From a virus: DNA of 64,000 bases. Under the pieces are notes generated by a model. The model was not told the DNA's origin and did not search any database. It saw only the letters and a program-made list of their open reading frames with translations. Position numbers and translations under genes: made by a program. Of this stretch, positions 12,912-44,604 are shown in pieces. The stretch is from the IMG/VR virus record IMGVR_UViG_3300033149_003931, positions 1 through 64,000 of that record; one strand, 5' to 3'. The number at the start of each line of letters is the position of its first letter. The stretch's first letter is position 1.

Positions 12912-13310
12912 ATGGCGGATCTGAAGGCAAATGTGGGTAGGATCTTAGTTGGGTCTGGTTTAGACCAACATGAGATCGCTAACTGTGAAGGAATTGAGGT
13001 TGATTATGATTTCAACCCGATCAAGCACTTTGCAGCCGATAGACAATATCCGATTTTTGTTGCTCATGGAAATAGCGAGTTAACGATTACGGTGGACTGT
13101 GCGGAGTACAAAGCAGATAGCACTTATGCTATTGATACAATTGCTCAAAATGGTGTTCCGGTTACGGTTGAACTATTAGCTGGTTATCGTGGTGGTGGGA
13201 TTCCTGCTGCAACATATACTAATTGTGTGGTTGTTCAGTATACCGTTACCTCAAGACAGGGTGATGTGGTCAAAGCTCGGGTAATTCTGAGCAAGCAATC
13301 TGATACATAA
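12912..13310 (+). CDS. Probable major tail tube protein
   Basis: AAGGAGG SD, ATG 12912; 132 aa all-beta pattern (IEVDYDFN..........PI.VAHG..ELTITVD) typical of tube proteins; no tube gene at the usual position. Confidence 0.55.
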   Translation: MADLKANVGRILVGSGLDQHEIANCEGIEVDYDFNPIKHFAADRQYPIFVAHGNSELTITVDCAEYKADSTYAIDTIAQNGVPVTVELLAGYRGGGIPAATYTNCVVVQYTVTSRQGDVVKARVILSKQSDT

Positions 13311-13338
13311 TCAGATGGTAGCTAAGGAGGCTAATTTT

Positions 13339-14478
13339 ATGGAATTAAATAAAAAAAGAAAAGGTTTTCTCAGAACGTTCATCCGACAAGTAGATGAGGA
13401 AAATCTTACAATTACTCATACTATTAATACGAAGGCGCTAGATCGTTATAGTACCGTCGTGTTGCCAAAAGGGGCTGATGTCAAGCATTTTTTAAATAAT
13501 GCTGTCGTATTATGGTCACATAATATGGATGTAGCGACACCGAAAATCCCGATTGCTAAATGCGTCAGTTTAGATATTCGTGAGGAGGAAATAGAGGCGG
13601 TGACTGAGTTTAATAAAAAGGATCCTTTAGCGGTTAAAGTTTTTAACGCTTATCGGGATGGTTTTTTACATGCTTGGTCAATAGGTTTTATGCCTATGCA
13701 ATATAAACAGATTGATGAAGAAAATGTGGAAGACATTAATCAGAAATATGGTCTGAAGATTTCAAAAGACGATATTAATGATGCCGGTTATTGGGGTGTC
13801 TATCTTATTCTTAAATGGGAATTGCTTGAGTATTCAGCGGTACCCGTACCCGGAAATCCGGAAGCTTTATCTGCTGATGATGAAAGTACGTTTAAAAGAG
13901 AATTGGTTACCCGCGGTTTGGTTGATGAAAAGATTGCTAATTCGATGGATATTCGTGCTTCTTTAAAAAGAGATGAAGAGATACCGGTGGAAGAAACTCC
14001 GGCAGAGGAGGCACCTGTTGAAGAGACCCTAGCAGAAGAGGAAGAAGTACCTGCCGAAGAGACACCGGCAGGGGAAGTTCCGGCTGAGGAGACGCCGGCA
14101 GAAGAGGCCCCGGCAGAAGAAATGCCAGCTGAAGAGGAAGCTGAATCTACCGACTCAACGGAAGATAATACTGAATCTAATGATAACGTCGCTGAAGACA
14201 CCGATACTTCTGAAGAAGAGCAAGATACCAATACGGAAAGAAAGGCTCTCGAAAGTAAGATCGATGAACTCAATCAGAAGAATCAAGAATTATCGGAAAG
14301 ATTGACTAATCTTGAAACGAAACTGAATGAATTGTCAAATATGAATTCTGTTTTAGCAGAGATTAAGCAAAGTCTTGATGTTGATAATATAGAAAAAGTG
14401 AGGGAGGCAGCTCAGAAAAGAAAAGCGGGCCAGAATCCCGATACGTGGTTTAGTAATTACATACGCTCTGCTAAGTAA
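13339..14478 (+). CDS. HK97-type prohead protease fused to acidic linker and coiled-coil scaffold
   Basis: LDRY..VV.P.G, VLWSHN, WSIGF, LLEYSAVPVPGNPEAL; EETPA repeats then heptad coil; AAGGAGG SD. Confidence 0.9.
   Translation: MELNKKRKGFLRTFIRQVDEENLTITHTINTKALDRYSTVVLPKGADVKHFLNNAVVLWSHNMDVATPKIPIAKCVSLDIREEEIEAVTEFNKKDPLAVKVFNAYRDGFLHAWSIGFMPMQYKQIDEENVEDINQKYGLKISKDDINDAGYWGVYLILKWELLEYSAVPVPGNPEALSADDESTFKRELVTRGLVDEKIANSMDIRASLKRDEEIPVEETPAEEAPVEETLAEEEEVPAEETPAGEVPAEETPAEEAPAEEMPAEEEAESTDSTEDNTESNDNVAEDTDTSEEEQDTNTERKALESKIDELNQKNQELSERLTNLETKLNELSNMNSVLAEIKQSLDVDNIEKVREAAQKRKAGQNPDTWFSNYIRSAK
13975..14145 (+). repeat. ~15-bp imperfect tandem repeat encoding EE(T/A/V)PA
   Basis: EEIPVEETPAEEAPVEETLAEEEEVPAEETPAGEVPAEETPAEEAPAEEMPAEEE. 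Confidence 0.85.
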
Positions 14479-14536
14479 TTATAACGGAAAGAAAGAAGTA
14501 ACGAATCGTTTTAAATAAACAAGGAGGAACCTTAAT

Positions 14537-15475
14537 ATGGATTTTGTAATTCCTGCTGGTAGTGCTACTAATCTTCCAAAAGAATTAGTGGACAAGATTG
14601 TTGAAGACGCCATCGAAAAGTCTTTAGTTTTACGCATGGTCGATTCAAGGGATCAATTGATTGAGATCGTTAATGAGGGTACTATCCCGGTTATCGGTGA
14701 AGAGGATCTTGACAAAGTTTATCGTCTTGATAACACGGCTGATATTACTACATTGACTGAAATGAGTTTTGATATTAAGTCACCTGATTTGGAACCTGTT
14801 GAATTAGGTACTTATATCTATCTGAAGAAGAAACAGGTAGCTCAATATCCTGAACTCAAACTGGATCAATTGTTTCGTAATAAAATTAGTCGTGCGATTG
14901 CTCGTACAGCGGACAAGATGGCCCTTAAGGGTGACACAACTGCTGTTGGCGCAACGAATCCTCTGAATATTTCAGATGGTATCGAGAAACTGGCTAACAC
15001 GGCTAACGCCGCTAACGCCCCTGTTGAATATACGACTTCTAACGCACAGAACATTCTTGACGCTGTAGCTGAAGCACAGAGTGATCTTGGTGTTTATGGT
15101 TCTGAAGAAGATATGGAAGATTTAATTTTGCTTGGTTCTTCTGATTTCGTAACTGCCGCTAAGAAATCTGCATCTAAAGAGATGGTTGGTTATGATATTG
15201 AAGATGTACCTGCTATTAATCTTCGCCGAGTTGTTCATATTCATGGTATTCCATTGGTTCGTCGTCTAAATATTACGGGCGAAAAAGCCATTTTAGCAAA
15301 TATGAAAGGCGCTTTTGCTGGATATTATGGTAATATTGAAGTTGATGTTGAGCACAAAGCTGGCCGTCGGGCTGATCTCTTGGTTGTCACGTATTGGTTT
15401 GATTTTGTTTGGGCTTTTGTTAATGGCAGCAATAAGAGTGAGGGTTTGATTACTATTCAAAAAGCAAGTTCTTAA
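14537..15475 (+). CDS. Major capsid protein (HK97 fold)
   Basis: Follows protease; LPKEL.DKIVE...KSLV, AIAR..D..AL.GD, DGI.K; strong SD and downstream terminator. Confidence 0.88.
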   Translation: MDFVIPAGSATNLPKELVDKIVEDAIEKSLVLRMVDSRDQLIEIVNEGTIPVIGEEDLDKVYRLDNTADITTLTEMSFDIKSPDLEPVELGTYIYLKKKQVAQYPELKLDQLFRNKISRAIARTADKMALKGDTTAVGATNPLNISDGIEKLANTANAANAPVEYTTSNAQNILDAVAEAQSDLGVYGSEEDMEDLILLGSSDFVTAAKKSASKEMVGYDIEDVPAINLRRVVHIHGIPLVRRLNITGEKAILANMKGAFAGYYGNIEVDVEHKAGRRADLLVVTYWFDFVWAFVNGSNKSEGLITIQKASS

Positions 15476-15493
15476 TCTTTGATTGAAGATTAT

Positions 15494-15534
15494 CTGGTAG
15501 AGTTCTGGCTATTTTCGGAGCTCTACCAGTTTTT
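15494..15534 (+). terminator. Rho-independent terminator after capsid gene
   Basis: CTGGTAGAGTTCTG/CGGAGCTCTACCAG stem followed by TTTTT. Confidence 0.75.
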
Positions 15535-15643
15535 GTAAGCGTCATCTACCAAGTGTAGAAGGACATGCGGCGTCGTAGGAAATATCTTACGCTGCCGTTA
15601 ATTTTAAATATTGTTAATATCATAAAATTGATGAGGGAAACCC

Positions 15644-18022
15644 ATGGCGGCCTTCAGACTTATTTCAGATGAGATTATTACTTACATACCTAATCCTTTC
15701 GACAAAACTCTCATAAAACAAAAAAATTATATTATCCCAAAACCTAAAGGTAAATGTACCGTTGTCGGTTTTGTAAGCCATTTAAAGGGGCCCGCAGCAA
15801 TTCATCCTTTGGTATACTCTTTGGTTGAACAAGGTATAGGAATTGTTTATGTTTGTGATAAAATGCCTTCAGAACCCCTTATTGATGAACACATTCATTA
15901 CTTAGAATGTCCGGATAGATGGTTCATTCATACTCTCTTCCTAAACCCGCTTAATTTTGCCTCAGTTTTTTGTTCTTGCTCGCATCAAAAGTTAGCTTTG
16001 GCCTTTTCTGAATTCACTAAATATTATATTCCAATATTAAACACCATACGTGATGTTTTAAGATTATCAAAAAATTTCGATTCAAATAAAAACACTGTGC
16101 TGGTAGAAATTTTTGGTGGCGTCGGGGATCATCTTTTAACTATTCCCTCATTGAAAACTTTAGCAAGTAAAGGGAATAAGGTCTTTGTATTATGCGAGGA
16201 TCATCGTAAACCCTGTTTTAATAACCTGCCTTATATTAAAGGCTTTTTCTCAAAAAGAAGTGACGTTAATATTTCCAAATTTAAAAAAATTATTTATTTA
16301 CACTTTGGGCAATTATTAAATGATTACAGGAAAGATTTTAATAAACAAAATAGAATTTATTCTGTAGCTGAGTTGTGTGGATTCAGACCAGAAGATTTGG
16401 TTATAGATACGCCAGAAATTATCTTTACTAAAGAGGAGTTAGCTTTAGCCAGAAGTAAGTGGGCCCCGTATAAAAATAAAATATTCTTAGGGTATGATAG
16501 TGCTAGAATTGATTCTAAGCTCCCGAATAATATGGCACAGAGTCTTATCAATAAGTTTAAAGCCCGAGGTCATACAGTTTTCGTAGCCTCTATTAGGCGA
16601 CATTCCTTTGAGAATTGTATAGACCTGAGTAAAAAGACATCACTAAGAGAAATGTTTGCGTTAATCGCTATGGTGGATTGTGTAGTTACCGTAGATACCT
16701 CTTTTCTTCATGTAGCCGGTGCCTTGAATAAAAAAACTTTTTGTATGTTAAATTATTTTAAACCGGAATGGAGGTGTGGGACGTATAAAAACTGTTCTAC
16801 ATACACCCCAAATGTTCCTTGTTTCCCTTGTGTTGCAAAGCAATTTGTTTCCTCAAAGGACTGGCAATGTCATAGAAAATCTTGTTATGAGTTTCAGGAT
16901 GTGGATAAAATAATGAATGACGTTTCTCAGTTTTTAGATAAACGTATTTGTGATGGAAAAGAGATTTTACAAGGCTCTAATTTAATAGGCGTGGAAATAA
17001 ACTTACCCGATAAAATAGATAGGCGTTTACTTCCCGGGAAAGTGATTTCAGTAAGAAAAACCGGTGGTAAAAAAATCGCGGCTTTTTGGATGGGTGGTTT
17101 AGGCGATTCGATAATGCTGAGTTATCTTTGTCGGGCTATTAAAAGAAAATATCCTGAAGCTAATATAGACGCCTTTGTAAGGGATGCAAGACAGGTTCAA
17201 TTTTTTGTATTCGATTATCCGGATATTAAAGCGCAGTTTTCTAATTTAGATTGGAGAAGGCTTTTTAAGAAAATAAAAAATGACTATGATATTATTTATG
17301 AATTTCGTCCGTATCCGTATATTTGGCATAATGATGATCCCAGTTTAAATAAGAAATTTGATGCAGAGTTATATAATAATTGGCAAAAATCTACGGGATA
17401 CATTCTTAATAATTGGAATAAGCAGACATTCCTTTATTATGCACAGCAAACTGAGTTAAACTTGACTGAACAGGATATGCAAATCCCTCTTGTGCATAAA
17501 GTCGACCTATCAGGGTTTTTAAGAGATAAATATAATTTAGGAGAGAAATATTTAACAATCAGTTCTGGGTGTGACCAAAATGTTGGTTTACTTAAGCTGT
17601 GGCCCAATAAGAAATGGGCTGAATTAATTAGTAAGTTAAAAGCTGAGGGATATACTGTTATCCAGTTAGGGGATAAAATAGACCCGGTATTGGACGGGGC
17701 GCGAAAAGTTTGTTGTAGGAATCTTATTGATTTAATGTATGTTTTAAAGAGGAGTCAATTTCATATTGGGAATGAGGGTGGCCCCATTCATTTAGCTCAT
17801 GCGGTAGGGACTAAGAGTATTGCTTTATTTGGGCCGACTAATCCAACGCTTTATGGTTATCCAGACAATATCAATATTTATAATCAAAAATGTCCCTCTT
17901 GTTGGTGGCTGGTTCAGGGTTGGAGTCAAAACTGTAAGAAGGGGTATAAGTCTTGTATTAATCTTGATGAAATTAGTGTTAATCAAGTTTATGGTGGTGT
18001 TTTGGAAGCAACCCGGATTTAA
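15644..18022 (+). CDS. Tandem double GT9 (ADP-heptose:heptosyltransferase-like) glycosyltransferase
   Basis: Two GGxGD starts (GGVGD, GGLGD) and two GT9 C-motifs (VTVDTSFLHVAGAL; IGNEGGPIHLAHAVG...LFGPT), each followed by a CxPC-like Cys cluster. Confidence 0.88.
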   Translation: MAAFRLISDEIITYIPNPFDKTLIKQKNYIIPKPKGKCTVVGFVSHLKGPAAIHPLVYSLVEQGIGIVYVCDKMPSEPLIDEHIHYLECPDRWFIHTLFLNPLNFASVFCSCSHQKLALAFSEFTKYYIPILNTIRDVLRLSKNFDSNKNTVLVEIFGGVGDHLLTIPSLKTLASKGNKVFVLCEDHRKPCFNNLPYIKGFFSKRSDVNISKFKKIIYLHFGQLLNDYRKDFNKQNRIYSVAELCGFRPEDLVIDTPEIIFTKEELALARSKWAPYKNKIFLGYDSARIDSKLPNNMAQSLINKFKARGHTVFVASIRRHSFENCIDLSKKTSLREMFALIAMVDCVVTVDTSFLHVAGALNKKTFCMLNYFKPEWRCGTYKNCSTYTPNVPCFPCVAKQFVSSKDWQCHRKSCYEFQDVDKIMNDVSQFLDKRICDGKEILQGSNLIGVEINLPDKIDRRLLPGKVISVRKTGGKKIAAFWMGGLGDSIMLSYLCRAIKRKYPEANIDAFVRDARQVQFFVFDYPDIKAQFSNLDWRRLFKKIKNDYDIIYEFRPYPYIWHNDDPSLNKKFDAELYNNWQKSTGYILNNWNKQTFLYYAQQTELNLTEQDMQIPLVHKVDLSGFLRDKYNLGEKYLTISSGCDQNVGLLKLWPNKKWAELISKLKAEGYTVIQLGDKIDPVLDGARKVCCRNLIDLMYVLKRSQFHIGNEGGPIHLAHAVGTKSIALFGPTNPTLYGYPDNINIYNQKCPSCWWLVQGWSQNCKKGYKSCINLDEISVNQVYGGVLEATRI

Positions 18023-18033
18023 GGAGATTTATT

Positions 18034-18567
18034 ATGCGATCAATTTCTGAAAAAGATTTAATTTTACTGTCTAATAAAAAATCTGGGATGAGTATTGTTG
18101 AACTGATTGAGCTTTGTAAATTAATTGATATACATAAGCCTAAAAGAATTTTAGAGATTGGTACCAAGCACGGAAGGACTACGATTAATATGGCTAAGTT
18201 TAGTCCTGAAGATGCTGAGATATTCTCTGTTGATATTTTGGTCTTAGATAAGCCTGAGATTTGTGAGTTATCTGAATATAAAAAGATTACTTTTCTTCAG
18301 GGCGATACCCTGACGTTTGATTTTAGGACTGTAGGTAAAGATCAGTTTGATTTTATTTTGGTGGATGCCAACCATCTTGAAAAATTTGTGATTAATGATA
18401 CCAAGATCGCTTATCATTTAATTAAGCCTGAGGGAATTATTGTTTGGCATGACTATAATAAAGATCAGTCGTATAACAATCTTCAGGTAACTCAAGCATT
18501 GAACAGGCTGGGAATTAAGCCTAATGTTATTGGTAAAACATCGTTGGTTTGGTTAAAGGTAAAATAA
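18034..18567 (+). CDS. Class I SAM-dependent O-methyltransferase (Methyltransf_24-like)
   Basis: ILEIGT..G.T, FDFILVDANH, GIIVWHDY. Confidence 0.85.
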   Translation: MRSISEKDLILLSNKKSGMSIVELIELCKLIDIHKPKRILEIGTKHGRTTINMAKFSPEDAEIFSVDILVLDKPEICELSEYKKITFLQGDTLTFDFRTVGKDQFDFILVDANHLEKFVINDTKIAYHLIKPEGIIVWHDYNKDQSYNNLQVTQALNRLGIKPNVIGKTSLVWLKVK

Positions 18568-18569
18568 TT

Positions 18570-19271
18570 ATGAAAGTTGGCAGAAAAATATTATTTGCAG
18601 GAACAACTTCCTCGGGATCATCTGCTTTGTTTGATTATTTTAGATGCTTTAAAAATACCTGTGGGATGGTGACTGAGATGCCTAGGGTGTGGCGGAAGAA
18701 TCTGTATCCTAAATGGAAACAGGAGCGTTTTAATCATCCAGAGAAGTATAAAGTCTTATTGAATAACGGGATTGAACAAGAGGCTCGTAAGAGATTTGGT
18801 AAAAAATTGGAGGCTTCGGTCTTATTATTAAACAACGTTGTGACCTGTTTAACCTTACCCGGGATTAAACTCTTGGATAATACTTTAGTTTTTTGTGTGC
18901 TAAGAGATCCAAGATCCACTTGGTTAAGACGCCGGCAATTATGTATTGAATCTGGTTGGCCTGTAGATGTAAACCAGTTTATTAAAGATTATAGAGTGCA
19001 ACGAGAAACATTTTCTAATCATTTAAAAGGCTTAAAGACTAATCGTAATAAAATTTATGTGGTTAATTTTGAGGATTTTTTATTAGATTTAGCATTTAAG
19101 AGACGGGTCGTTGAAATTGCTGGATTCAATATTGAAGAATACCCAAGTAATCCGAAGTATGCGCCGATACCAAAAGAGCAATCTATTTTATGGCATCATT
19201 TTTATGTTAAACAAGATGAGATTGATCTAATTAAACAGGAGTTGTTGGAGTATTGTCATCCAAGGGTTTAA
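18570..19271 (+). CDS. Sulfotransferase-like P-loop protein
   Basis: G..SSGSSALFDY (5'-PSB-like), VLRDPRSTW (3'-PB-like), VNFEDF. Confidence 0.7.
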   Translation: MKVGRKILFAGTTSSGSSALFDYFRCFKNTCGMVTEMPRVWRKNLYPKWKQERFNHPEKYKVLLNNGIEQEARKRFGKKLEASVLLLNNVVTCLTLPGIKLLDNTLVFCVLRDPRSTWLRRRQLCIESGWPVDVNQFIKDYRVQRETFSNHLKGLKTNRNKIYVVNFEDFLLDLAFKRRVVEIAGFNIEEYPSNPKYAPIPKEQSILWHHFYVKQDEIDLIKQELLEYCHPRV

Positions 19272-19273
19272 CT

Positions 19274-19705
19274 ATGCAAGGTCATCTTAAAAAATTTAAA
19301 GTAGGTATTACCTTTGGTGGGTTTGACCTCTGCCACATTGGGCATTTGAATCTTTTAAAACAGGCGAAGAAATTGTGTGATTATTTAGTTGTTTGTGTTA
19401 GTAATGATAGTTATATAAAGAAAATAAAAAAGTATGCTTCTGTTATCCCGTTAAAAGATAGAATTGAAATTATAAAAGCCATACGTTATGTTGACGAAGT
19501 TGATATTCAAAAATTAAATTTTGGAAAAAAACCATTAATAAAAAAGTATGGCGCAGATGTTATTTTTGTTGGTAATGACTGGACACCCGAAACATTTACT
19601 GGGGAAAATCTTGGGGTACCCGTTGTTTATTTGGATAGAACTAAAGGAATAAGTTCGACTCAATTACGAGTTAAATATTTAATTAATGGGGTAGATTATG
19701 GATAG
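19274..19705 (+). CDS. HIGH-family nucleotidyltransferase (TagD / RfaE domain II-like)
   Basis: GGFDLCHIGH.NLL..AK, R.EI..AIRYVDEV, GNDW, RT.GISST. Confidence 0.9.
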   Translation: MQGHLKKFKVGITFGGFDLCHIGHLNLLKQAKKLCDYLVVCVSNDSYIKKIKKYASVIPLKDRIEIIKAIRYVDEVDIQKLNFGKKPLIKKYGADVIFVGNDWTPETFTGENLGVPVVYLDRTKGISSTQLRVKYLINGVDYG

Positions 19706-20198
19706 GCTAAATTTAGGCTGTGGAAATAAGAAGTTCTCAGATTTTTTAAACGTGGATATTAGACCTGAAGTGAAACCAGATATTATTTTAGATATTTCCG
19801 ATCTTTCTCAATTTGAAAATCAAACTTTTTCGTATATCTTGGCTATGGATATTCTTGAGCATTTTCCCCATGCTAGGGTTTGGCCCGTATTAACGGAATG
19901 GGTTAGATGCTTAAAAATTGGTGGACAGATTGAGATACAGGTACCGAGTATTGATCGAATATATAAAGATAGAGATAAGTTAGTTAATAATTATGATGGT
20001 GATTCTTCTTTACGGTTTTCTCAATTAATTTTTGGGGGCCAAGGTTATCAAGATAATTTTCATTGTGTATTTTTTACGCCGGAATTTTTTAAATTAATGC
20101 CTAAACGCTTAGGATTGGAAATTACAAAATACTTTCCTGAGATTGGGTTGTATAATCATAAAGTAATTATGACTAAGATATATGAAATTAAAAAATAA
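19698..20198 (+). CDS. SAM-dependent methyltransferase (type 11-like)
   Basis: LNLGCG...F.NVDI, ILEHF, EW.RCLK.GG.IEI.VP. Confidence 0.85.
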   Translation: MDRLNLGCGNKKFSDFLNVDIRPEVKPDIILDISDLSQFENQTFSYILAMDILEHFPHARVWPVLTEWVRCLKIGGQIEIQVPSIDRIYKDRDKLVNNYDGDSSLRFSQLIFGGQGYQDNFHCVFFTPEFFKLMPKRLGLEITKYFPEIGLYNHKVIMTKIYEIKK

Positions 20199-21036
20199 AA
20201 ATCTGCTTTGGCTCACGGACTACACGGTGAAAGAAGTTCCTGCGGGTGGCGCGGAGATTACGGATTCCTATGTGATTCAGGCTGGAAAGTCTTTAGGGTA
20301 TTCTATCCAAGTGTGTTGTCCGAGTAACTTGAGATCAAATATTTTAGAAAAAAGTGATTTGGTAATTTTTAGTAATTGTTATGAGTTTCCGAAACCGGCC
20401 AGACAGATGATTATGGAGGAGAAGCCTTATGTTGTTTACTCCCATGATTCCGGTCGTTGGATGGAGGTCGTTAAAAGAAGCCCAAATATGATGAAAAATG
20501 CTCAGGCAAATATTTTTCTATCTCCGTTACACAGGGATTGTTTTTCTAAATTTTTAGTTGGGGCCAAGAATATTTTGTTAGTCCCACCCCATATTCCCGT
20601 GGAGTTTTATGATCGCGGCGCACAGCGGGTTAATAAGATTATTTTTGTTGGAAATATTCACGAAGGTAAAGGTATTTGTGAGATCATTCAATATGCAAAA
20701 GATAATCCTTGCATGGTTTTTGATTTTTATTACAAAAGGGGTGTTAGTTACCTTATTCGTCAGCTTAAGGCTTTAAATAACTGCAATTTAGTGGGTTATG
20801 TACCCAAAGAGGCGATATATAATAATTATAATAAATATAAATATTTTATTCATATACCACAGCATTATGAGTCTTTTGGTCGGGCCGTTGGGGAGGCATA
20901 TTTGTGCGGTTGTGAAATCATTGTAAATAAAAGGGTTGGAGCAGTTTCTTATGATTGGGACTACCAAACTTTCAGGAAAAGGACTATGCACGCTCATTTT
21001 ATTTTTTGGGAAAAGCTATCTAAAGCTTTGGATTAA
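20182..21036 (+). CDS. GT-B glycosyltransferase (GT4-like)
   Basis: GGAE, FVGNI...KG, ESFGRAVGEAYLCGC (EX7E). Confidence 0.85.
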   Translation: MKLKNKNLLWLTDYTVKEVPAGGAEITDSYVIQAGKSLGYSIQVCCPSNLRSNILEKSDLVIFSNCYEFPKPARQMIMEEKPYVVYSHDSGRWMEVVKRSPNMMKNAQANIFLSPLHRDCFSKFLVGAKNILLVPPHIPVEFYDRGAQRVNKIIFVGNIHEGKGICEIIQYAKDNPCMVFDFYYKRGVSYLIRQLKALNNCNLVGYVPKEAIYNNYNKYKYFIHIPQHYESFGRAVGEAYLCGCEIIVNKRVGAVSYDWDYQTFRKRTMHAHFIFWEKLSKALD

Positions 21037-21054
21037 GTTGGTTTCTATAAGGGT

Positions 21055-21074
21055 TTATTTGTATTTAATAATAG
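21055..21074 (+). promoter_or_regulatory. Putative late promoter motif, copy 3
   Basis: TTATTTGTATTTAA-TAA-TAG before 21085. Confidence 0.7.
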
Positions 21075-21084
21075 GGGGTGTCTA

Positions 21085-21531
21085 ATGAAAGTGTTTCTTT
21101 ATGGTAAATACACAATAGGGGATAAGATAATCCTATCACATTTTCAGAGTATACTCAAGAATTGTGAATACTTGGGGGAAAAGGTTGACTTATCTCGAAT
21201 CAATCCGGAACAAGAAAATCTTATTGTAGTATCCAATTCTAGTCTATTTCATATAGATCAGGATAAGGTATTGGGATATATTAATAAGGATTTAACTAAG
21301 CCTTTAATGGTTGTTCGTAAAATCAAGACTTTTGGAACGGTTTTTTTTGAACCGAATTTTCGGGTAGAAAAGATTACGACTAACAAGGGATATAATTTTG
21401 CAGGAATGTTATTTCTGCCGAAGAAATATTTAAAGGCGTTAAAAACCGGGAAGAAAACCATATCGGAAATTTTTCGGACTGTACCTTACGAGGATTGGAG
21501 ATTTTATATAATTAATTCTAAAAGGAAATAA
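21085..21531 (+). CDS. Divergent sugar-phosphate nucleotidyltransferase-like protein
   Basis: FGTV......VEKI......NFAGMLFL resembles the NTP_transferase core; N-terminal GGxGTR motif absent. Confidence 0.45.
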   Translation: MKVFLYGKYTIGDKIILSHFQSILKNCEYLGEKVDLSRINPEQENLIVVSNSSLFHIDQDKVLGYINKDLTKPLMVVRKIKTFGTVFFEPNFRVEKITTNKGYNFAGMLFLPKKYLKALKTGKKTISEIFRTVPYEDWRFYIINSKRK

Positions 21532-21553
21532 TAAGTATATCAAAGGAGACATT

Positions 21554-21772
21554 ATGGAATTTTTAGCTTACCCTCAGTCTGTGCCTGTTGTCAATGATCA
21601 TTATCAGGTTGTCACAAAATTAAATGATCAGTATGAAGTTGTTGTGGGGCGTTATGACGTATCTGGTACTTGGTATAAGGTGGACGAGATTGCTGTAAAT
21701 TTGGAGAGCGGTGGAAAGATTGTTGCGGCCTTTTTGCCAAAACCTGAAGTACCCGAATGTGCAAAGATTTAA
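21554..21772 (+). CDS. Hypothetical protein
   Basis: AAAGGAG SD. Confidence 0.6.
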   Translation: MEFLAYPQSVPVVNDHYQVVTKLNDQYEVVVGRYDVSGTWYKVDEIAVNLESGGKIVAAFLPKPEVPECAKI

Positions 21773-21803
21773 TTTGAGAAATTATATCCGCGGTGGCCCC
21801 GCA

Positions 21804-21825
21804 AAAATAGGCTGCGGCCTATTTT
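21804..21825. terminator. Short symmetric terminator-like hairpin
   Basis: AAAATAGGC-TGCG-GCCTATTTT. Confidence 0.55.
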
Positions 21826-21862
21826 AAATAATATAAAATTATAAGAACACAGTGGAAATAAT

Positions 21863-23311
21863 ATGGATTACTTTACAAGTTCATTAGCTGGTGGCGGTGG
21901 TGTAGGGACAAAGGAAGATCCGTTTACATTAACGGAAGGACTTGCTTTTGCAAATGCTGGGTCTCTGCTGAATGATGAGACTCTATGGGTTAAGGGTGAT
22001 GGTATTTATCCAATGTCTGATTTTGCCTTAATATCTCCCGGTTTTTATACTCCGGTACCATCTTTTAAAAACATAAAGGGTTATACTTCTGTTATAACCG
22101 ATAATGGAAGAGCAACTATTCAAAGAAGTGGCGGAGCGGGTATATTATTTGATATACAAGCCAGTTATTGGAGAGTAGAAAATTTTAATATTGACGGACA
22201 AAATTTTGGAACAACCAATCTTGATCTTCAATCCGGAAACAATGTTGGAAGGAACATAGTTTCTTATAATGCCGGCACTTATGGATTTGACAATGGGATA
22301 TTATTTGACTGTTATTCACATGATAATGGTACTTACAATTACAATGCCGCTAATTGTCATAATACTATAAGTAAGAATAGTGGATCGATTGGATATTACG
22401 GTTGTAATTTAACAAATTTTGCTTCCTATAATGACACTCAAGATGCAGTAAGAGCTTTTAATGGTAGAAATATTATGAATGGTGTTATTGTTGGTGCTGG
22501 TGGGCATGGGATTGCTCAAGTGTATTATGGATGTGTTATTAAAAATATTTCTATTTCATATTGTGTGAATAATGCTTTAAACATTGATCGAGACGGAAGT
22601 ATTATTGAAAATATGAATTTTTATAAGAATGGTGGAATTTCAAATGAGATGGCTCAACTTGGAACTTATTATGAATTAGATCCACAATTCACAAACCCCG
22701 CTGTATTAGATTTTACTCGTACAGGGACAAATTTGGATGATAAAGGTTTTTCAACCATAGGAACTCTTGCGTTTAATTATAGAATAGATATAGGTATTGA
22801 CCAAAAGAGATCCCCTGATTATCCGGATAATGGAGAAGTTCTTTCTACGGCTACGTTTGATTATGGTAATCGGACAGGTACGTATGTAGAGGTGGTGATA
22901 GGTAAAGTAGTCTCCGGGATTCAATATGGGGAAGATGGGACGGAGCATACTGGCGTTTACGTTGAAACCCCGGTTGGAAAAGTAATTTTAGGAATAGGCT
23001 TTGGTGCTAATGGTACAGAAAAAACTGGAACCTATGTTGAGGTAGCAATAGGTAAGGTTATTTCTGGGATTCAATATGGTGCGGATGGTACGCAGCATAC
23101 CGGGGTTTATGTCGAGACCCCGGTTGGAAAAGTAATTTTAAGCACTGGCTTTGGGGCAAATGGTACGGAAAAAGACGGCACGTATGTAGAGGTTGCGGAA
23201 GTTGACGCAAGAGATGGTACGTTTTACGGTGCCGGCGGGACGGAAAAAGAAGGTTCTTTAGACGCACCCAAGTCAGTTCAGGAAATCGCGATTGCTGTGG
23301 AGGTGGAGTAA
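21863..23311 (+). CDS. Virion protein with beta-helix (pectin lyase-like) domain and C-terminal 25-aa repeats
   Basis: GxGT.EDPF.L N-terminus, Asn-ladder repeats (SYNAG.YG, SHDNG), DPQF.NPA..DF; TG.YVE...GKV..G..YG..GTE repeats. Confidence 0.7.
   Translation: MDYFTSSLAGGGGVGTKEDPFTLTEGLAFANAGSLLNDETLWVKGDGIYPMSDFALISPGFYTPVPSFKNIKGYTSVITDNGRATIQRSGGAGILFDIQASYWRVENFNIDGQNFGTTNLDLQSGNNVGRNIVSYNAGTYGFDNGILFDCYSHDNGTYNYNAANCHNTISKNSGSIGYYGCNLTNFASYNDTQDAVRAFNGRNIMNGVIVGAGGHGIAQVYYGCVIKNISISYCVNNALNIDRDGSIIENMNFYKNGGISNEMAQLGTYYELDPQFTNPAVLDFTRTGTNLDDKGFSTIGTLAFNYRIDIGIDQKRSPDYPDNGEVLSTATFDYGNRTGTYVEVVIGKVVSGIQYGEDGTEHTGVYVETPVGKVILGIGFGANGTEKTGTYVEVAIGKVISGIQYGADGTQHTGVYVETPVGKVILSTGFGANGTEKDGTYVEVAEVDARDGTFYGAGGTEKEGSLDAPKSVQEIAIAVEVE
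22875..23260 (+). repeat. 75-bp coding repeats with 150-bp higher-order duplication
   Basis: GGGATTCAATATGG and CCCCGGTTGGAAAAGTAATTTTA each recur 150 bp apart. Confidence 0.85.
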
Positions 23312-23649
23312 TGTCTATTACAATTAATAGCGTTGATACGCGTAGATTAACTCTGAAACAAAAAGAGGGCAAACGTTTAAAGTTTACCTATAATATTGCT
23401 GTCGATACAGCGACGTTTTCTCTTATCGTTAAAGATCGATCGGGGACGACGATTTTTACTAAGTCCGATTCAGATTTTGATAAAATTCTAATTGCGACCA
23501 AGATTGTAAAAGTTTATTTAACTGTGGCTGATCTGGATGTAGCCATAGACACCTATGTGATGGAGTTAAAAACGATATGGGATGCTGCGCTTAGTGTGGA
23601 TAAGACTGAAAATATAAAGTTAAAGATTAAAGAAAGTCTTCATTCTTAA
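23311..23649 (+). CDS. BppU-like Ig-fold virion protein
   Basis: Beta-sandwich pattern (ATFSLIVK, V.LT..DL....Y..EL); coupled to previous gene. Confidence 0.5.
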   Translation: MSITINSVDTRRLTLKQKEGKRLKFTYNIAVDTATFSLIVKDRSGTTIFTKSDSDFDKILIATKIVKVYLTVADLDVAIDTYVMELKTIWDAALSVDKTENIKLKIKESLHS

Positions 23650-23654
23650 GGAGG

Positions 23655-24730: not shown

Positions 24731-24732
24731 TT

Positions 24733-42350: not shown

Positions 42351-42602
42351 CTATTCTTGAGTCGTTAATTCTTTAATAACTTTTGCCAGAAGAATTTCTC
42401 GGGCCTCTTTTATTTTTACGGTATCTCGGATATTCTCAGGTGCAATATACTGAAGGGTTCCATAAAAGAGTCCTTGATAAGCTGCTTCCAAAATATAAAA
42501 TCCACCTAAACAAGTTTGAGGAAACTTTTTAACCCGTTTTCCTTTACTGTTTATATAAAGCAAACCCTCTTCCAAAATATTAATATCTTTTTTTAAGAGC
42601 AT
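42351..42602 (-). CDS. Hypothetical protein
   Basis: GGAGG SD within the upstream gene. Confidence 0.55.
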   Translation of the reverse strand: MLLKKDINILEEGLLYINSKGKRVKKFPQTCLGGFYILEAAYQGLFYGTLQYIAPENIRDTVKIKEAREILLAKVIKELTTQE

Positions 42603-43591
42603 AATTCCTCCGGTGTTACTACCGCTGTACCCATTTTGGAAACGACTATGCCAGCAGCTTTGTTAGCGAGTTTCGCTGCATCTAAGGGTTTCATTCTCAC
42701 GGATAAAGCTAAGGTATAAACCGCAATAACAGTATCTCCCGCTCCGGTGACATCAACAATATCTTGTTTTTCCGCAGATAAATGATTAACCCCATCATCT
42801 GAGAATAGGCATACACCTTGAGAGCTCATTGTTATCAAAAGTGTTTCTAACTCATAAGTCGTTCGTATAACCGCACCACGAAATTTAAGTTGATTTATTT
42901 CATGTGAATATTTATCCTTGCCTAAAATAGCAAATTCGGTAAGATTTGGGGTTATTGCAGTAAAATGCCGGAATAATTCCAAATCTGTTTTATGCGTATC
43001 TGCCGTAACAATCTTCTTATATTGCTTCTGTAAACAACTTATATGTTGTAAAAGCTCAGGATATACAACCCCTTTGTTGTAATCTGAAATAATAATAGCA
43101 TCAAAATATCTCATATGTCTATCCAAGTTTGCATGAAGAGCCTCTTTAAATTCAAGATTCTCTTCAACAGATGTTTTATTCTCATAATCAACCCTGAGTA
43201 ATTGATGATTCTCTGAAATAAACCGAGTTTTGATACTGGTTGGAACAGTTGTGTCTTTCATTAAGAGATCAATATTAATCTTTGATAAACTCAACAAATT
43301 CTTAATAACTAAGCCCGCCGGATCATCTCCAATACGCCCAATAAGCCAAACCTTTGCTCCAAGACTACTGAGGTTTCTTGCAACATTAGTGGCCCCACCT
43401 AACCGATAATACTGTTTCTTTTTATCAAGGATTGGAATTGGCGCTTCGGGCGAGACTCGTGTTACCGAGCCTTCGATATATTCATCTAAGATCACATCTC
43501 CAATCACCAAAATTTTTTGATTAGAAAAATCAATCAGATGTCGTTTCTTATACCTTATCATAGCTTTTTTATGTTTTTGCATATCACACAT
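42593..43591 (-). CDS. rfaE1: D-glycero-beta-D-manno-heptose-7-phosphate kinase (RfaE/HldE domain I, PfkB family)
   Basis: VIGDVILDEY..G.V.RVSPEAPIP, GGA.NVA.N, QLLRVD.E, ISDY.KG, TPN..E, DVTGAGDTV, AN.AAG.VV.K.GTA.V. Confidence 0.92.
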   Translation of the reverse strand: MCDMQKHKKAMIRYKKRHLIDFSNQKILVIGDVILDEYIEGSVTRVSPEAPIPILDKKKQYYRLGGATNVARNLSSLGAKVWLIGRIGDDPAGLVIKNLLSLSKINIDLLMKDTTVPTSIKTRFISENHQLLRVDYENKTSVEENLEFKEALHANLDRHMRYFDAIIISDYNKGVVYPELLQHISCLQKQYKKIVTADTHKTDLELFRHFTAITPNLTEFAILGKDKYSHEINQLKFRGAVIRTTYELETLLITMSSQGVCLFSDDGVNHLSAEKQDIVDVTGAGDTVIAVYTLALSVRMKPLDAAKLANKAAGIVVSKMGTAVVTPEELCS

Positions 43592-44160: not shown

Positions 44161-44604
44161 TTAAGTCAACTTTGACTTATATTCACCCGGGTTTAATTTC
44201 CGGGACTCTGTAATACGGTAACTGTCTTCATCTTTATGCGTCGTTGAAATCTCAAGAATTTTAGAAGCAAAAGTTCGAGAACGGAATTTATGAGCAAGAT
44301 ATGGTTTGATTCTTATTTGATCTTTGTGTTTTAAAACTCTCATCTTTATTTTGGTTAAGTCAATTGAGGCTGTGGCTTGGAGAATATTTCCCTTCACTGA
44401 CCATTTACTATCAGCAGATTTCCTTAAATCAAGATAGTATAATTCTACCTCGCCACAAAGAATATAAAATGTTTCATCTTTTTTAATATGATAGTGTAAA
44501 CTGCACTCATAACCGCTATTTAGATTGAGATATTTTGAACAGTAGAATTCAGTATTTATTAACCAATCTTCACTACCCCAGATTTTTTCAACATGGTTAA
44601 TCAT
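44161..44604 (-). CDS. Cupin-fold sugar-phosphate isomerase-like protein (mannose-6-phosphate isomerase type II-like)
   Basis: VEK.WG.E.W..N..FYC.K, SLHYH..KDETFY.L.G, H.F, LE.ST.H..EDSYR. Confidence 0.8.
   Translation of the reverse strand: MINHVEKIWGSEDWLINTEFYCSKYLNLNSGYECSLHYHIKKDETFYILCGEVELYYLDLRKSADSKWSVKGNILQATASIDLTKIKMRVLKHKDQIRIKPYLAHKFRSRTFASKILEISTTHKDEDSYRITESRKLNPGEYKSKLT

What the first reader, a model, noticed from the sequence alone, without database searches (positions are those of the whole stretch)
15644..21531. Seven-gene glycan-building cassette placed directly behind the major capsid gene
Seen: tandem double GT9, O-methyltransferase, sulfotransferase-like protein, HIGH nucleotidyltransferase, second methyltransferase, GT4 and a divergent NTP-transferase are tightly packed between the capsid gene and the neck genes on the late strand. 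Known: GT9 enzymes (WaaC/WaaF family) transfer heptose from ADP-heptose, and some phages glycosylate virion proteins. Inference: late co-expression suggests the particle is decorated with a heptose-containing, methylated and possibly sulfated LPS-mimicking glycan. Remodelling of the host surface receptor is the alternative.
Basis: partly seen in the sequence, partly recalled or inferred. Interest (0 to 1): 0.85.

Follow-up and report, generated by a model that had tools for sequence, protein, structure and literature searches.

The report
Variable sugar-coating island behind phage capsid gene
An uncultured 92-kb phage and all its known relatives carry, right behind the capsid gene, a strain-variable set of sugar-building enzymes that most likely coats the phage particle with a modified heptose-type glycan; no chemistry yet shows what receives the sugar.

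Summary
The cassette is real. Six of the seven gene calls hold: a double GT9 with an extra N-terminal domain, two SAM methyltransferases, a sulfotransferase-fold protein, a HIGH-motif nucleotidyltransferase and a GT4-like enzyme. The seventh (orf148, "NTP-transferase") is unproven and appears to start the next late transcription unit.

The nucleotidyltransferase is TagD-like (a CTP-dependent cytidylyltransferase), not a heptose adenylyltransferase. The sulfotransferase-fold protein lacks the usual catalytic Lys/Arg and is always inherited together with that nucleotidyltransferase.

In at least 12 related contigs (capsid protein 64-94% identical) the island sits in the same slot. It has a fixed frame (NTD+GT9a first, GT4-like and orf148 last) and a mosaic middle: APS kinase plus a canonical sulfotransferase, LicD modules, a pyruvyl transferase, a phosphonate module, a FucNAc-type pathway, inteins and homing endonucleases. 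All enzymes are soluble, and there is no flippase, polymerase or ligase.

A phage HldE-type heptose kinase supports heptose as the sugar. The "LPS mimicry" idea has no support.

The best reading is glycosylation of the virion surface (about 0.5). Rivals are remodelling of the host envelope and DNA glycosylation.

This scan already found the same kind of island in a related 92-kb phage (e1-5961144, e1-5961147).

The parts
14537..15475 (+). Major capsid protein (HK97 fold), 312 aa, ends in ...KASS
   Evidence: PF05065 at 29.6 bits, phrog_10. It is 64-94% identical in relatives, and the C-terminal residue is Ser or Thr in all nine aligned sequences.
15494..15529 (+). Strong intrinsic-terminator-like hairpin (15-bp stem plus T run) directly after the capsid gene
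   Evidence: A comparable hairpin plus T run follows the capsid gene in all relatives examined.
15644..18022 (+). 792-aa three-part enzyme: Rossmann-like N-terminal domain (aa 1-145), GT9a (aa ~146-440) and GT9b (aa ~478-792)
   Evidence: PF01075 matches twice. The G-D, K and D/E-x-G-x-x-H motifs align with E. coli WaaC D13, K192, D261 and H266 in both modules. A CxxC...C...C cluster is conserved after each module. NTD+GT9a is the conserved part and GT9b is exchangeable. The Atlas model shows the NTD as Rossmann-like.
18034..18567 (+). MT1: class I SAM-dependent O-methyltransferase-like protein, 177 aa
   Evidence: PF13578 E 1e-12 and PF01596 E 1e-8. The best real PDB match is the SAM-dependent O-methyltransferase 3r3h.
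18570..19271 (+). orf240/233: sulfotransferase-fold protein, closest to TPST, with a non-canonical PSB loop (GTTSSGSS); always paired with the nucleotidyltransferase
   Evidence: AF2 pLDDT 90.8. Foldseek gives TPST2 at E 1e-6. VIA gives Z 15.5, rmsd 3.4 over 220 residues, against 12.5 for other sulfotransferases. hhalign places a Ser where a canonical sulfotransferase has Lys.
19274..19705 (+). NT: TagD-like cytidylyltransferase (HxGH and RTKGISST motifs); the only PF01467 gene in the genome
   Evidence: PF01467 at 70 bits. TIGR01518 86 bits against TIGR02199 73 bits, both below their cut-offs. PDB: TagD 78 bits, TarD 77 bits, HldC 25 bits. E. coli HldE domain II: 33% identity, 58 bits. Single copy in the genome.
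19698..20198 (+). MT2: second SAM methyltransferase, 166 aa; present even in the minimal cassette of relative L033
   Evidence: PF08241 at 25 bits against a cut-off of 21.2, and PF13489. 63% identical copy in L033.
20182..21036 (+). GT4-like GT-B glycosyltransferase, 284 aa; the conserved last enzyme of the island
   Evidence: PF00534 at 35.9 bits against 26.4. Present in all relatives, including the distant L034 (38% identity).
21042..21080 (+). Repeated late-operon motif (core TTATTTGTATTTAA), probably a promoter or processing site, just upstream of orf148
   Evidence: Three copies in the window, at 9432, 12859 and 21042. A copy precedes the orf148 homologue in every relative.
21085..21531 (+). 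orf148: small conserved protein of unknown function; always follows the GT4-like gene and starts the connector gene unit
   Evidence: 66-78% identical in relatives. The family has 12 representatives, all 109-149 aa. Invariant D35, S37, N100, K101. No family or PDB hit. AF2 pLDDT 54. ESM lead to NTP_transf_3 clusters at 0.92.
42593..43591 (-). [quoted passage not shown]
   Evidence: TIGR02198 at 323 bits, E 1.5e-96. 38% identical to E. coli HldE residues 2-308. Present in relatives G001-G003 and absent from the complete relative G007.
44161..44604 (-). Cupin sugar-isomerase-like protein, a candidate first step of the heptose route
   Evidence: PF07385 D-lyxose isomerase at 21.8 bits against a cut-off of 20.8. 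The lead came from earlier finding e1-6063637.

Best explanation
The region is a virion-glycosylation island of a clade of roughly 85-96-kb uncultured tailed phages.

Proposed mechanism:
1. Transcription reads through the terminator behind the capsid gene and yields low, catalytic amounts of soluble enzymes.
2. The conserved first enzyme (N-terminal domain plus GT9a) puts a heptose on a conserved phage protein in the cytoplasm. The capsid protein is the most likely acceptor; another head protein is possible.
3. The heptose donor is an NDP-heptose. Its supply is boosted by the phage's own HldE-type kinase and cupin isomerase and completed by host enzymes.
4. GT9b and the GT4-like enzyme extend the glycan, and the two methyltransferases O-methylate it.
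5. The co-inherited pair of TagD-like cytidylyltransferase and sulfotransferase-fold protein adds a charged substituent, either glycerol-phosphate from CDP-glycerol or sulfate.
6. Related phages swap the middle of the island for other tailoring chemistries, which gives strain-specific particle surfaces.

Shown here: the gene identities, intact catalytic motifs, the conserved position and frame, the mosaic middle, and the absence of membrane or export functions. Inferred: the acceptor, the donor sugars, the order of steps and the timing of expression.
For: 1. Position. In all 12 or more related contigs that cover the region, the island lies between the capsid gene and orf148/connector genes. 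This includes a relative whose capsid protein is only 64% identical, where the island is about 14.8 kb.
2. Fixed frame, variable middle. NTD+GT9a comes first; its identity (47-72%) declines broadly together with that of the capsid protein. The GT4-like gene and orf148 come last.
3. Contents of the middle. Relatives carry APS kinase plus Sulfotransfer_1, an FkbM MT, a pyruvyl transferase, a GT2, a UGDH-like protein, SDR+NT+LicD, a PEP-mutase-NT fusion plus Fe-ADH, and an FnlA/B/C-like set. This is the tailoring repertoire of exposed surface glycans.
4. No export machinery. None of the cassette proteins has a transmembrane segment, and there is no flippase, polymerase, priming transferase or ligase. 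This fits direct stepwise glycosylation of a cytoplasmic acceptor.
5. Both GT9 modules keep the catalytic Asp, the Lys and the acidic-Gly-x-x-His motif.
6. A heptose-7-P kinase is encoded by this phage and by three relatives.
7. NTD+GT9a forms a lineage of 34 clusters seen only on contigs of 96 kb or less. In two relatives an intein sits inside its CxxC motif, as is usual for genes a phage cannot lose.
8. Precedent. Phage-encoded glycosyltransferases glycosylate capsid and tail-tube subunits of mycobacteriophages (Freeman et al. 2023, known here only as cited in PMC11256854 and PMC12619734).
Against: - No direct evidence for the acceptor.
- The capsid protein has no obvious Ser/Thr-rich tag, only a conserved ...KASS end. 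The 142-aa neck/tail protein has no conserved Ser/Thr end.
- Characterised GT9 enzymes mostly act on LPS. HMM scores are below every heptosyltransferase equivalog cut-off, including the protein-directed TibC family.
- A conserved terminator precedes the cassette, the cassette lacks the late-operon motif, and expression timing is unknown.
- The heptose route in the phage is incomplete: no GmhB and no clear heptose nucleotidyltransferase. One complete relative has the GT9 pair but no kinase.
- The host is unknown.
Confidence: 0.5

Rival explanations
1. The island remodels a glycan of the host envelope (LPS inner core, a teichoic-acid-like polymer or a capsule precursor) at the cytoplasmic face. 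Host transporters then export the product. This masks the receptor, so it excludes superinfecting phages or keeps progeny from sticking to debris.
For: GT9 is the LPS heptosyltransferase family, and the best NCBIfam hits are heptosyltransferases II, I and III. TagD, LicD, pyruvyl transferase, phosphonate and FucNAc-type genes are classic cell-envelope glycan functions. LPS-core transferases are themselves soluble or peripheral, so the lack of membrane proteins does not exclude this reading.
Against: The island sits inside the head module of a lytic-type phage with terminal repeats, not in an early or lysogeny module. Envelope remodelling started late in infection would have little time to reach the surface. 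The NTD+GT9a lineage is phage-only and scores far below the LPS equivalog cut-offs. Relatives with almost the same capsid protein, which probably infect similar hosts, carry very different chemistries.
Confidence: 0.2
2. The enzymes hypermodify the phage DNA by building a heptose-containing glycan on a modified base. Some phage gene clusters are reported to do this with a cytidylyltransferase plus a GT-B enzyme that put one or two heptoses on 5hmC.
For: The bioRxiv preprint 10.1101/2023.12.21.572611 reports heptosylated 5hmC made by a phage HAD/APH enzyme plus cytidylyltransferase plus GT-B. It also notes such clusters in neighbourhoods with structural genes. This phage has a C5 cytosine methyltransferase at 60550-61452. 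Its heptose kinase lies in the replication module.
Against: No thymidylate-synthase-like hydroxymethylase was found. No Tet/JBP match was found either, although the control for that search did not ring, so it is a weak negative. The neighbours of the methyltransferase are a peptidase, SbcC-like, SprT-like and Ogg-like proteins, not oxygenases. Sulfate, pyruvate, phosphonate and LicD-type decorations and multi-sugar chains are not known on DNA. The position between capsid and connector genes is atypical for DNA-modification clusters.
Confidence: 0.07
3. The island glycosylates something else, or makes a soluble or lipid-bound glycoconjugate: a non-structural phage protein, a host protein, or a small molecule with a role in takeover or defence evasion. 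Its place in the head module would then be a historical accident of a recombination hot spot.
For: Homing endonucleases and inteins crowd the region: LAGLIDADG, an HNH fusion and an endonuclease I-like gene. A tRNA gene is inserted in two relatives. These features mark the slot as a cargo insertion site. NDP-heptoses have roles beyond LPS (PMC11573728).
Against: A pure cargo slot would not keep the same first and last enzymes in every member of the clade. It would also not keep an intein-bearing gene.
Confidence: 0.1

Closest known systems
Mycobacteriophage virion glycosylation (Che8 and other cluster F1 phages; Freeman et al. 2023, Cell Host Microbe 31:1216; known here only through PMC11256854 and PMC12619734)
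   Same: Phage-encoded glycosyltransferases act in the cytoplasm on phage structural proteins and give the particle a glycan coat. Methyltransferases and several transferases work together.
   Different: There the transferase genes lie near the right genome end (PMC11256854), whereas here they sit directly behind the capsid gene. The enzyme families differ: GT9 plus heptose kinase, a TagD-like enzyme and a sulfotransferase fold. The host is unknown and not actinobacterial by composition (36% GC). Glycosylation here is not demonstrated.
LPS inner-core heptosyltransferases WaaC/WaaF/WaaQ (CAZy GT9, PF01075)
   Same: Same fold and donor-binding C-lobe. The G-D catalytic base, the Lys and the D/E-x-G-x-x-H motifs align.
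   Different: Scores are 54-65 bits against cut-offs of 135-185. Here two modules are fused behind an extra Rossmann-like domain, Cys4 clusters are present that the E. coli enzymes lack, and the lineage is phage-only.
Bacterial autotransporter heptosyltransferases TibC/Aah (BAHT; PMC4358343)
   Same: A GT9-type enzyme that O-heptosylates a protein in the cytoplasm from ADP-heptose. It has a four-Cys metal finger in the C-lobe and an extra N-terminal domain.
   Different: TIGR04414 scores only 22 bits against a cut-off of 200. TibC's N-terminal domain is a beta-barrel, whereas the domain here looks Rossmann-like. The Cys spacing differs. Neither a dodecamer nor iron binding can be tested.
TagD/TarD glycerol-3-phosphate cytidylyltransferase (PDB 1COZ, 2B7L)
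   Same: Best structural-database matches of the NT (78 and 77 bits). HxGH, the two Lys of the substrate loop, the (D/N)DW motif and RTxGIS(T/S)T are all present.
   Different: Below the TIGR01518 cut-off (86 against 165). No TagB/TagF-type or LicD-type transferase is present in this phage to use CDP-glycerol. The gene sits beside a heptose-type system, so an NDP-heptose product is not excluded.
Tyrosylprotein sulfotransferases TPST1/2 (PDB 3AP3, 5WRJ) and other PAPS sulfotransferases
   Same: Whole-chain fold match (Z 15.5, 220 of 233 residues). There is an RD-x-R motif where TPSTs bind the 3'-phosphate and an invariant Glu about 22 residues after the P-loop-like turn (the motif positions are from my own knowledge of TPST2).
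   Different: 12-13% identity and no Pfam hit. The Lys/Arg of the 5'-phosphosulfate loop is Ser. The gene is always coupled to a cytidylyltransferase.
Chlorovirus PBCV-1 capsid glycosylation machinery (A064R and partners; from my own knowledge, mentioned)
   Same: Virus-encoded, cytoplasmic, multi-domain transferase plus methyltransferase enzymes build an unusual methylated glycan on the major capsid protein.
   Different: That is a eukaryotic giant virus with GT-A folds and N-linked glycans. There is no sequence relationship.
Phage DNA glycan hypermodification clusters (bioRxiv 10.1101/2023.12.21.572611)
   Same: A phage cytidylyltransferase plus a GT-B transferase can install heptose.
   Different: Those clusters hold 5mC methyltransferase/5mYOX or ThyA-like genes. 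None was found next to this island or, for the ThyA-like and Tet-like families, anywhere in the genome.

Membership tests
CAZy GT9 / Pfam PF01075 Glyco_transf_9 | Profile score above the gathering threshold | tested here: met
   91.2 bits against 22, in two stretches. The six-frame search gives 57.5 and 37.2 bits.
CAZy GT9 / Pfam PF01075 Glyco_transf_9 | Catalytic Asp in the N-terminal G-D motif, the phosphate-binding Lys and the D/E-x-G-x-x-H motif (WaaC D13, K192, D261, H266) | tested here: met
   All align in GT9a and GT9b (GT9b has Glu for D261) in a MAFFT alignment with E. coli WaaC, WaaF, WaaQ and WaaU. Identity is only 17-24%, so the register is moderately reliable.
CAZy GT9 / Pfam PF01075 Glyco_transf_9 | Uses ADP-heptose (or another NDP-heptose) as donor | not testable with these tools
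   Indirect only. A phage HldE-type kinase is present, but one complete relative with the GT9 pair lacks it.
LPS heptosyltransferase I/II/III equivalogs (TIGR02193, TIGR02195, TIGR02201) | Score above the curated equivalog cut-off | tested here: not met
   57.1 against 185.3, 65.3 against 134.6, and 54.5 against 170.2.
BAHT protein O-heptosyltransferases (TibC/Aah, TIGR04414) | Score above the curated cut-off | tested here: not met
   22.4 bits against 200.
BAHT protein O-heptosyltransferases (TibC/Aah, TIGR04414) | Four-Cys iron finger inserted in the C-lobe (TibC C339, C342, C358, C370; PMC4358343) | tested here: inconclusive
   CxxC-x12-C-x4-C after GT9a and CxxC-x10-C-x6-C after GT9b. GT9a's four are invariant in all nine aligned relatives; GT9b's are kept in all but L006, whose GT9b module is a divergent one. 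Homology of these clusters to the TibC finger was not tested.
BAHT protein O-heptosyltransferases (TibC/Aah, TIGR04414) | N-terminal beta-barrel domain | tested here: inconclusive
   The Atlas model of residues 1-148 resembles Rossmann-like half-GT-B domains (TM 0.53-0.60), but the model's pLDDT is only 0.65.
TagD-type glycerol-3-phosphate cytidylyltransferase (TIGR01518) | Score above the equivalog cut-off | tested here: not met
   86.4 bits against 165.4. It is nevertheless the best-scoring NCBIfam model.
TagD-type glycerol-3-phosphate cytidylyltransferase (TIGR01518) | HxGH, the paired Lys of the substrate loop, (D/N)DW and RTxGIS(T/S)T motifs | tested here: met
   The alignment to 1COZ and 2B7L shows all four.
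Heptose-1-phosphate nucleotidyltransferase (HldE domain II / HldC, TIGR02199) | Score above the cut-off; (F/L)xxGRSTT 'STTR5' motif of promiscuous heptose nucleotidyltransferases (PMC11573728) | tested here: not met
   73.4 bits against 181.5. 25 bits to HldC 5X9Q. 33% identity to E. coli HldE domain II. The motif here reads RTKGISST, without the Arg.
PAPS-dependent sulfotransferases | Sulfotransferase fold | tested here: met
   Foldseek E 1e-6 and VIA Z 15.5 to TPST2. All top 49 VIA rows are sulfotransferases.
PAPS-dependent sulfotransferases | Lys/Arg in the 5'-phosphosulfate-binding loop | tested here: not met
   The loop reads GTTSSGSS. hhalign puts a Ser opposite the Lys of the canonical sulfotransferase of relative L004. 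In the 12 homologues this position is Ser in 11 and Ala in one, never Lys/Arg.
PAPS-dependent sulfotransferases | Sequence-profile membership (Pfam Sulfotransfer_1 to Sulfotransfer_5) | tested here: not met
   No Pfam, NCBIfam or PHROG hit. No PDB sequence hit even with a profile.
GT4 / Pfam PF00534 Glycos_transf_1 | Profile score above the gathering threshold | tested here: met
   35.9 bits against 26.4, C-lobe only (residues 150-253). No clear PDB sequence relative.
Phage virion glycosylation systems (mycobacteriophage type) | Glycan covalently bound to capsid or tail-tube subunits | not testable with these tools
   Needs virions. No sequencing run or culture is available.
Phage virion glycosylation systems (mycobacteriophage type) | Ser/Thr-bearing C-terminal ends on capsid and tail-tube proteins | tested here: inconclusive
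   The capsid protein ends in KASS, KAST or KSAS in all nine relatives. The 142-aa protein after Neck1 has no conserved Ser/Thr end. The tail tube protein was not identified.
Phage DNA sugar-hypermodification clusters | Enzyme that makes 5hmC or 5hmU (5mYOX/TET or ThyA-like hydroxymethylase) in the genome | tested here: not met
   PF00303: none. PF12851: none, but the control did not ring. The neighbours of the C5 methyltransferase are unrelated proteins.

The most novel reading that the evidence does not exclude
A whole clade of roughly 90-kb phages gives its capsids 'serotypes'. A fixed initiating GT9 enzyme heptosylates a head protein. A recombination-prone island then decorates the glycan with methyl, sulfate, glycerol- or ribitol-type phosphate, pyruvate, phosphonate or FucNAc-type groups. 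This would be a chemical diversity so far known only from bacterial surfaces. Within the island, the sulfotransferase-fold protein that lacks the catalytic Lys/Arg and is always paired with a TagD-like cytidylyltransferase would be a new kind of transferase, using a CDP-activated donor instead of PAPS.
Probability: 0.35. Interest if true: 0.82.

Novelty: new variant of a known kind. Interest (0 to 1): 0.68.

Why it matters
Particle glycosylation by phage-encoded enzymes has been shown only for mycobacteriophages, where it changes antibody recognition.

If this reading is right, a head-module island with a fixed frame and interchangeable chemistry would show that environmental phages diversify their particle surface much as bacteria diversify O-antigens. 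That bears on phage-phage and phage-host recognition, particle stability, grazing and immune clearance, and phage engineering.

The island also offers:
- a phage-only GT9 lineage that may be protein-directed;
- a physiological context for NDP-heptose genes in viruses, whose roles the literature calls unknown (PMC11573728);
- an odd sulfotransferase-fold enzyme coupled to a cytidylyltransferase.

All of these are directly testable by heterologous expression.

Tried and rejected
- **Cultured relatives.** Megablast of 13000-24000 and tblastn of the capsid protein against 50,697 GenBank phage records found nothing. The GT9 protein hit only 11 Caulobacter jumbo phages weakly. In CcrBL9 that gene lies beside an FkbM methyltransferase after a tail gene.
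- **orf148 as NTP-transferase.** No Pfam, NCBIfam, PHROG or PDB hit. A profile search of 1.84 billion representatives returned only 12 small homologues. The AF2 model was too poor (pLDDT 54) to search with, so I ran no fold search on it.
- **NT as the missing half of HldE.** Rejected on scores and motifs. In addition, a complete relative has the kinase and GT9 but no PF01467 gene.
- **C-terminal Ser/Thr tags on tail proteins** (a lead from earlier findings). Not consistent.
The count is 3 times the mononucleotide expectation but equals the Markov expectation.
- **A promoter for the cassette itself.** The conserved ATAAA(A/T)TTG box upstream of the GT9 start is not a repeated element in the window. 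The sigma-70 scan is no better than shuffles.
- **Host identification.** A genome-contig scan with the kinase found no relative. Cluster names gave only an Armatimonadota MAG GT9 and a probably mis-binned Novosphingobium MAG contig.
- **Expression.** No sequencing run was listed for the region; none was listed, which does not mean none exists.
- **GmhB.** Not found in the phage.

Full report
**Setting.** The window is the first 64 kb of a complete 92,567-bp virus record with direct terminal repeats. It has no close relative among 50,697 GenBank phage records. A plus-strand late operon runs from about 9.4 to 37 kb. It holds:
- a prohead protease/scaffold protein at 13315-14478 (PHROG head protease and major head families);
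- an HK97-type major capsid protein at 14537-15475;
- a head-tail adaptor and Neck1 at 24368-25324;
- a tape measure protein at 26535-28862 and tail proteins with lectin-like domains.

**The observation.** Between the capsid and neck genes lie tightly packed genes.
- 15644-18022 encodes 792 aa with two PF01075 (GT9) stretches.
- 18034-18567 is an O-methyltransferase-like class I enzyme.
- 18570-19271 has no sequence-family hit at all. It folds with confidence (pLDDT 91) into a sulfotransferase fold. The best matches are tyrosylprotein sulfotransferases: Foldseek E 1e-6, and VIA Z 15.5 over 220 of 233 residues against 12.5 for the next sulfotransferase class.
- 19274-19705 is a PF01467 HIGH-motif nucleotidyltransferase.
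- 19698-20198 is a second methyltransferase.
- 20182-21036 has a GT4-type C-lobe.

The seventh gene, orf148 (21085-21531), could not be shown to be an NTP-transferase. It has no profile or PDB hit, and its family has only 12 small members among 1.84 billion representatives. The AF2 model is poor. The ESM-feature similarity of 0.92 to NTP_transf_3 clusters is only a lead.

**Transcription signals.** A 15-bp-stem terminator hairpin follows the capsid gene (15494-15529). A 14-nt core motif occurs three times in the late operon, and its third copy sits immediately before orf148. Both signals are conserved in the relatives. The enzyme block 15644-21036 is therefore bracketed. It is probably read at a low level by terminator read-through, and orf148 starts the connector gene unit. 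This is inference; expression could not be measured.

**Anatomy of the double GT9.** Aligned with E. coli WaaC, WaaF, WaaQ and WaaU, both modules keep three motifs: the G-D motif (WaaC Asp13, the catalytic base), the Lys before the W/L-P turn (Lys192), and the acidic-x-Gly-x-x-His motif (Asp261/His266; GT9b has Glu).
- Scores are far below the cut-offs of every heptosyltransferase equivalog, including the protein-directed TibC/Aah family.
- Each module is followed by a conserved CxxC...C...C cluster. This recalls the iron finger of TibC (PMC4358343), but homology was not tested.
- An extra N-terminal domain of about 145 residues looks Rossmann-like in the Atlas model.

**The nucleotidyltransferase is TagD-like.** Its best matches among solved structures are B. 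subtilis TagD (78 bits) and S. aureus TarD (77 bits). They are followed by ethanolamine- and choline-phosphate cytidylyltransferases; Burkholderia HldC scores 25 bits.
- It has the HxGH motif, the paired Lys of the substrate loop, the NDW motif and RTKGISST.
- E. coli HldE domain II is 33% identical and reads ...EDGCSTT at that last place.
- The (F/L)xxGRSTT motif of promiscuous heptose nucleotidyltransferases (PMC11573728) is absent.
- It is the only PF01467 gene in the genome.
- A complete relative (G002) has the heptose kinase and the GT9 pair but no PF01467 gene.

I conclude that it most likely makes a CDP-alcohol such as CDP-glycerol (about 0.6). An NDP-heptose product remains possible (about 0.3), because a phage cytidylyltransferase is reported to take part in heptosylation of DNA.

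**Heptose.** The phage encodes an HldE-domain-I-type heptose-7-phosphate kinase at 42593-43591 on the minus strand (323 bits; 38% identical to E. coli HldE). A cupin with a weak D-lyxose-isomerase match lies at 44161-44604. An earlier finding (e1-6063637) had noted both. The kinase is present in three relatives. It is absent from the complete relative G007, which still has the GT9 pair, and the phage has no GmhB. Heptose is therefore the most likely GT9 sugar, but the route depends on the host.

**The sulfotransferase-fold protein.** Its P-loop-like turn reads GTTSSGSS. A profile-sequence alignment puts a Ser where the canonical sulfotransferase of relative L004 has its Lys. Among the 12 homologues this position is Ser in 11 and Ala in one, never Lys/Arg. 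It keeps an invariant RDPRSTW block and an invariant Glu 22 residues after the loop. From my own knowledge of TPST2 (RDGR 3'-phosphate motif, Glu99 base), these match the TPST arrangement.

The gene is always adjacent to the TagD-like gene in eight loci. That includes a pair diverged to 35-37% identity with reversed order. Both genes are absent together in three loci. This looks like a two-gene module. Either it is a real sulfotransferase with an unusual loop, or it uses the cytidylyltransferase product. I cannot decide between these.

**Relatives.** Capsid-protein and orf148 searches of IMG/VR gave more than 12 related contigs with capsid identity of 64-94%.
- *Position.* In every one that covers the region, the island lies between the capsid gene and orf148.
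- *Fixed parts.* NTD+GT9a comes first. Its identity (47-72%) falls broadly together with that of the capsid protein. In the distant G006 it stands alone as a 436-aa protein. The GT4-like gene and orf148 come last.
- *Smallest island.* G007: GT9x2, MT2, GT4-like.
- *Other relatives add or swap:*
  - APS kinase, a canonical Sulfotransfer_1 and an HNH-NT fusion (L004);
  - a GT2 fused to the GT9 pair, an FkbM methyltransferase and a pyruvyl transferase (L006);
  - UGDH-like genes;
  - short-chain dehydrogenase plus a second cytidylyltransferase plus LicD (L007, L011, L015);
  - in G006, a 14.8-kb island with a cytidylyltransferase-PEP-mutase fusion, an Fe-alcohol dehydrogenase, a HAD protein, GT32-like and GT2 enzymes and an FnlA/B/C-like set.
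- *Mobile elements.* Inteins with LAGLIDADG endonucleases sit inside the CxxC motif of GT9a in two phages. Free-standing homing endonucleases and a tRNA-Met gene are scattered in the slot.
- *Lineage.* NTD+GT9a forms 34 clusters at 90% identity, all on contigs of 96 kb or less. It is a phage lineage.

**Interpretation.** None of the cassette proteins has a membrane segment, and there is no flippase, polymerase, priming transferase or ligase. A set of soluble transferases and tailoring enzymes fits stepwise glycosylation of a cytoplasmic acceptor when it has these three features:
- a fixed place in the head module;
- vertically inherited first and last enzymes;
- a middle that changes between phages with nearly identical capsids.

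The variable chemistries are those of exposed glycans under diversifying selection. The precedent is mycobacteriophage virion glycosylation. I know it only through citing papers (PMC11256854, PMC12619734), because the original could not be opened. I put this reading at about 0.5.

**Arguments against it, and the rivals.**
- *Against.* No acceptor tag is evident. The capsid protein merely ends in KASS in all relatives, and a lead from earlier findings about Ser/Thr ends on tail proteins did not hold for the 142-aa neck/tail protein. Timing of expression is unknown.
- *Host-envelope remodelling (0.2).* It is favoured by the usual substrates of GT9, TagD and LicD enzymes. It is disfavoured by the position in a lytic-type head module and by the phage-only lineage.
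- *DNA glycosylation (0.07).* There is a real precedent for heptose, and the phage has a C5 methyltransferase. However, no hydroxymethylase or TET-like enzyme was found, and such decorations are unknown on DNA.
- *'LPS mimicry'.* It has no support. The host is unknown, and the TagD-like and sulfotransferase-fold genes point away from an LPS-core copy.

**Novelty and earlier findings.** Virion glycosylation by phage enzymes is known, so this is a new variant. The new elements are the GT9/heptose-based island in a fixed head-module slot, the interchangeable tailoring chemistry, and the unusual sulfotransferase-fold/cytidylyltransferase pair. The scan has already reported the same kind of island in a related 92-kb phage (e1-5961144, e1-5961147) and many other capsid-linked transferase cassettes. 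Those are unchecked notes and are not counted as evidence here.

Noticed in passing
L003:8997-12491 and L006:11217-15500: In two related phages an intein of about 370 aa with a LAGLIDADG endonuclease is inserted exactly between the two Cys of the CxxC motif of GT9a. The extein junctions read ...CFP | C...HN | CVA... In L006 the protein additionally carries a C-terminal GT2 domain (1427 aa).
   Followed up: partly
L037:2018-6466 (minus strand) and L034:87-8957: The distant relative G006 has a 14.8-kb island. It holds GT9a alone, a HAD protein, an Fe-alcohol dehydrogenase and a cytidylyltransferase-PEP-mutase fusion (phosphonate-type), a GT32-like enzyme, a GT2, an FnlA/B/C-like UDP-L-FucNAc-type set, a PRK-like kinase and the GT4-like gene.
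   Followed up: partly
L004:11094-15312: Relative L004 carries an APS kinase (PF01583, E 6e-59) and a canonical Sulfotransfer_1 protein next to the orf240 homologue. It also has an HNH endonuclease fused to the TagD-like gene. A 142-aa ORF with a weak HIGH-motif match precedes the APS kinase.
   Followed up: no
L033:4944-5017 and L006:11066-11136: A tRNA-Met (CAT) gene with near-consensus sigma-70-like promoters lies between the capsid gene and the GT9 gene in two relatives. The window's phage has no tRNA in its first 64 kb.
   Followed up: partly
window 21863-23311: This 482-aa protein has a Gly/Asn-rich N-terminal part, which I guessed to be beta-helix-like, and three 150-nt tandem repeats (22874-23323). 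It occupies a second variable slot between orf148 and the 195-aa connector-side protein. Relatives have other large proteins there: an 804-aa Laminin_G_3 protein in L005 and a DUF2793 protein in L010. It may be a head fibre or decoration protein.
   Followed up: partly
window 11551-12801: A 416-aa protein with a concanavalin-A-like lectin domain (PF13385, E 3.5e-14) lies inside the head module, upstream of the protease. The same domain occurs in the 951-aa tail protein at 29264-32119, which also has an F5/8 type C domain.
   Followed up: no
window 39802-40257 (minus strand): A 151-aa protein matches the macrodomain of the DarG antitoxin (NF048014, E 3e-14). It is a possible counter-defence against DarT-type DNA ADP-ribosylation.
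   Followed up: no
whole genome G000; window 60550-61452 (minus strand): A C5 cytosine methyltransferase is present (PF00145, E 7e-43). CCWGG occurs only 5 times in 92.6 kb. CCGG (302 occurrences) is 3 times the base-composition expectation but matches the trinucleotide Markov expectation.
   Followed up: partly
window 15615-15631 and the same place in L003-L033: A conserved ATAAA(A/T)TTG box lies 8-20 nt upstream of the GT9 start codon in all relatives. It is not a repeated element elsewhere in the window, and its meaning is unknown.
   Followed up: partly
L039:6086-7474 (Caulobacter phage CcrBL9 gp178-gp179): The only GenBank phages with a GT9-like hit are Caulobacter jumbo phages. In CcrBL9 the 285-aa GT9-like gene sits next to an FkbM methyltransferase, between a tail protein gene and the lysozyme gene.
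   Followed up: no
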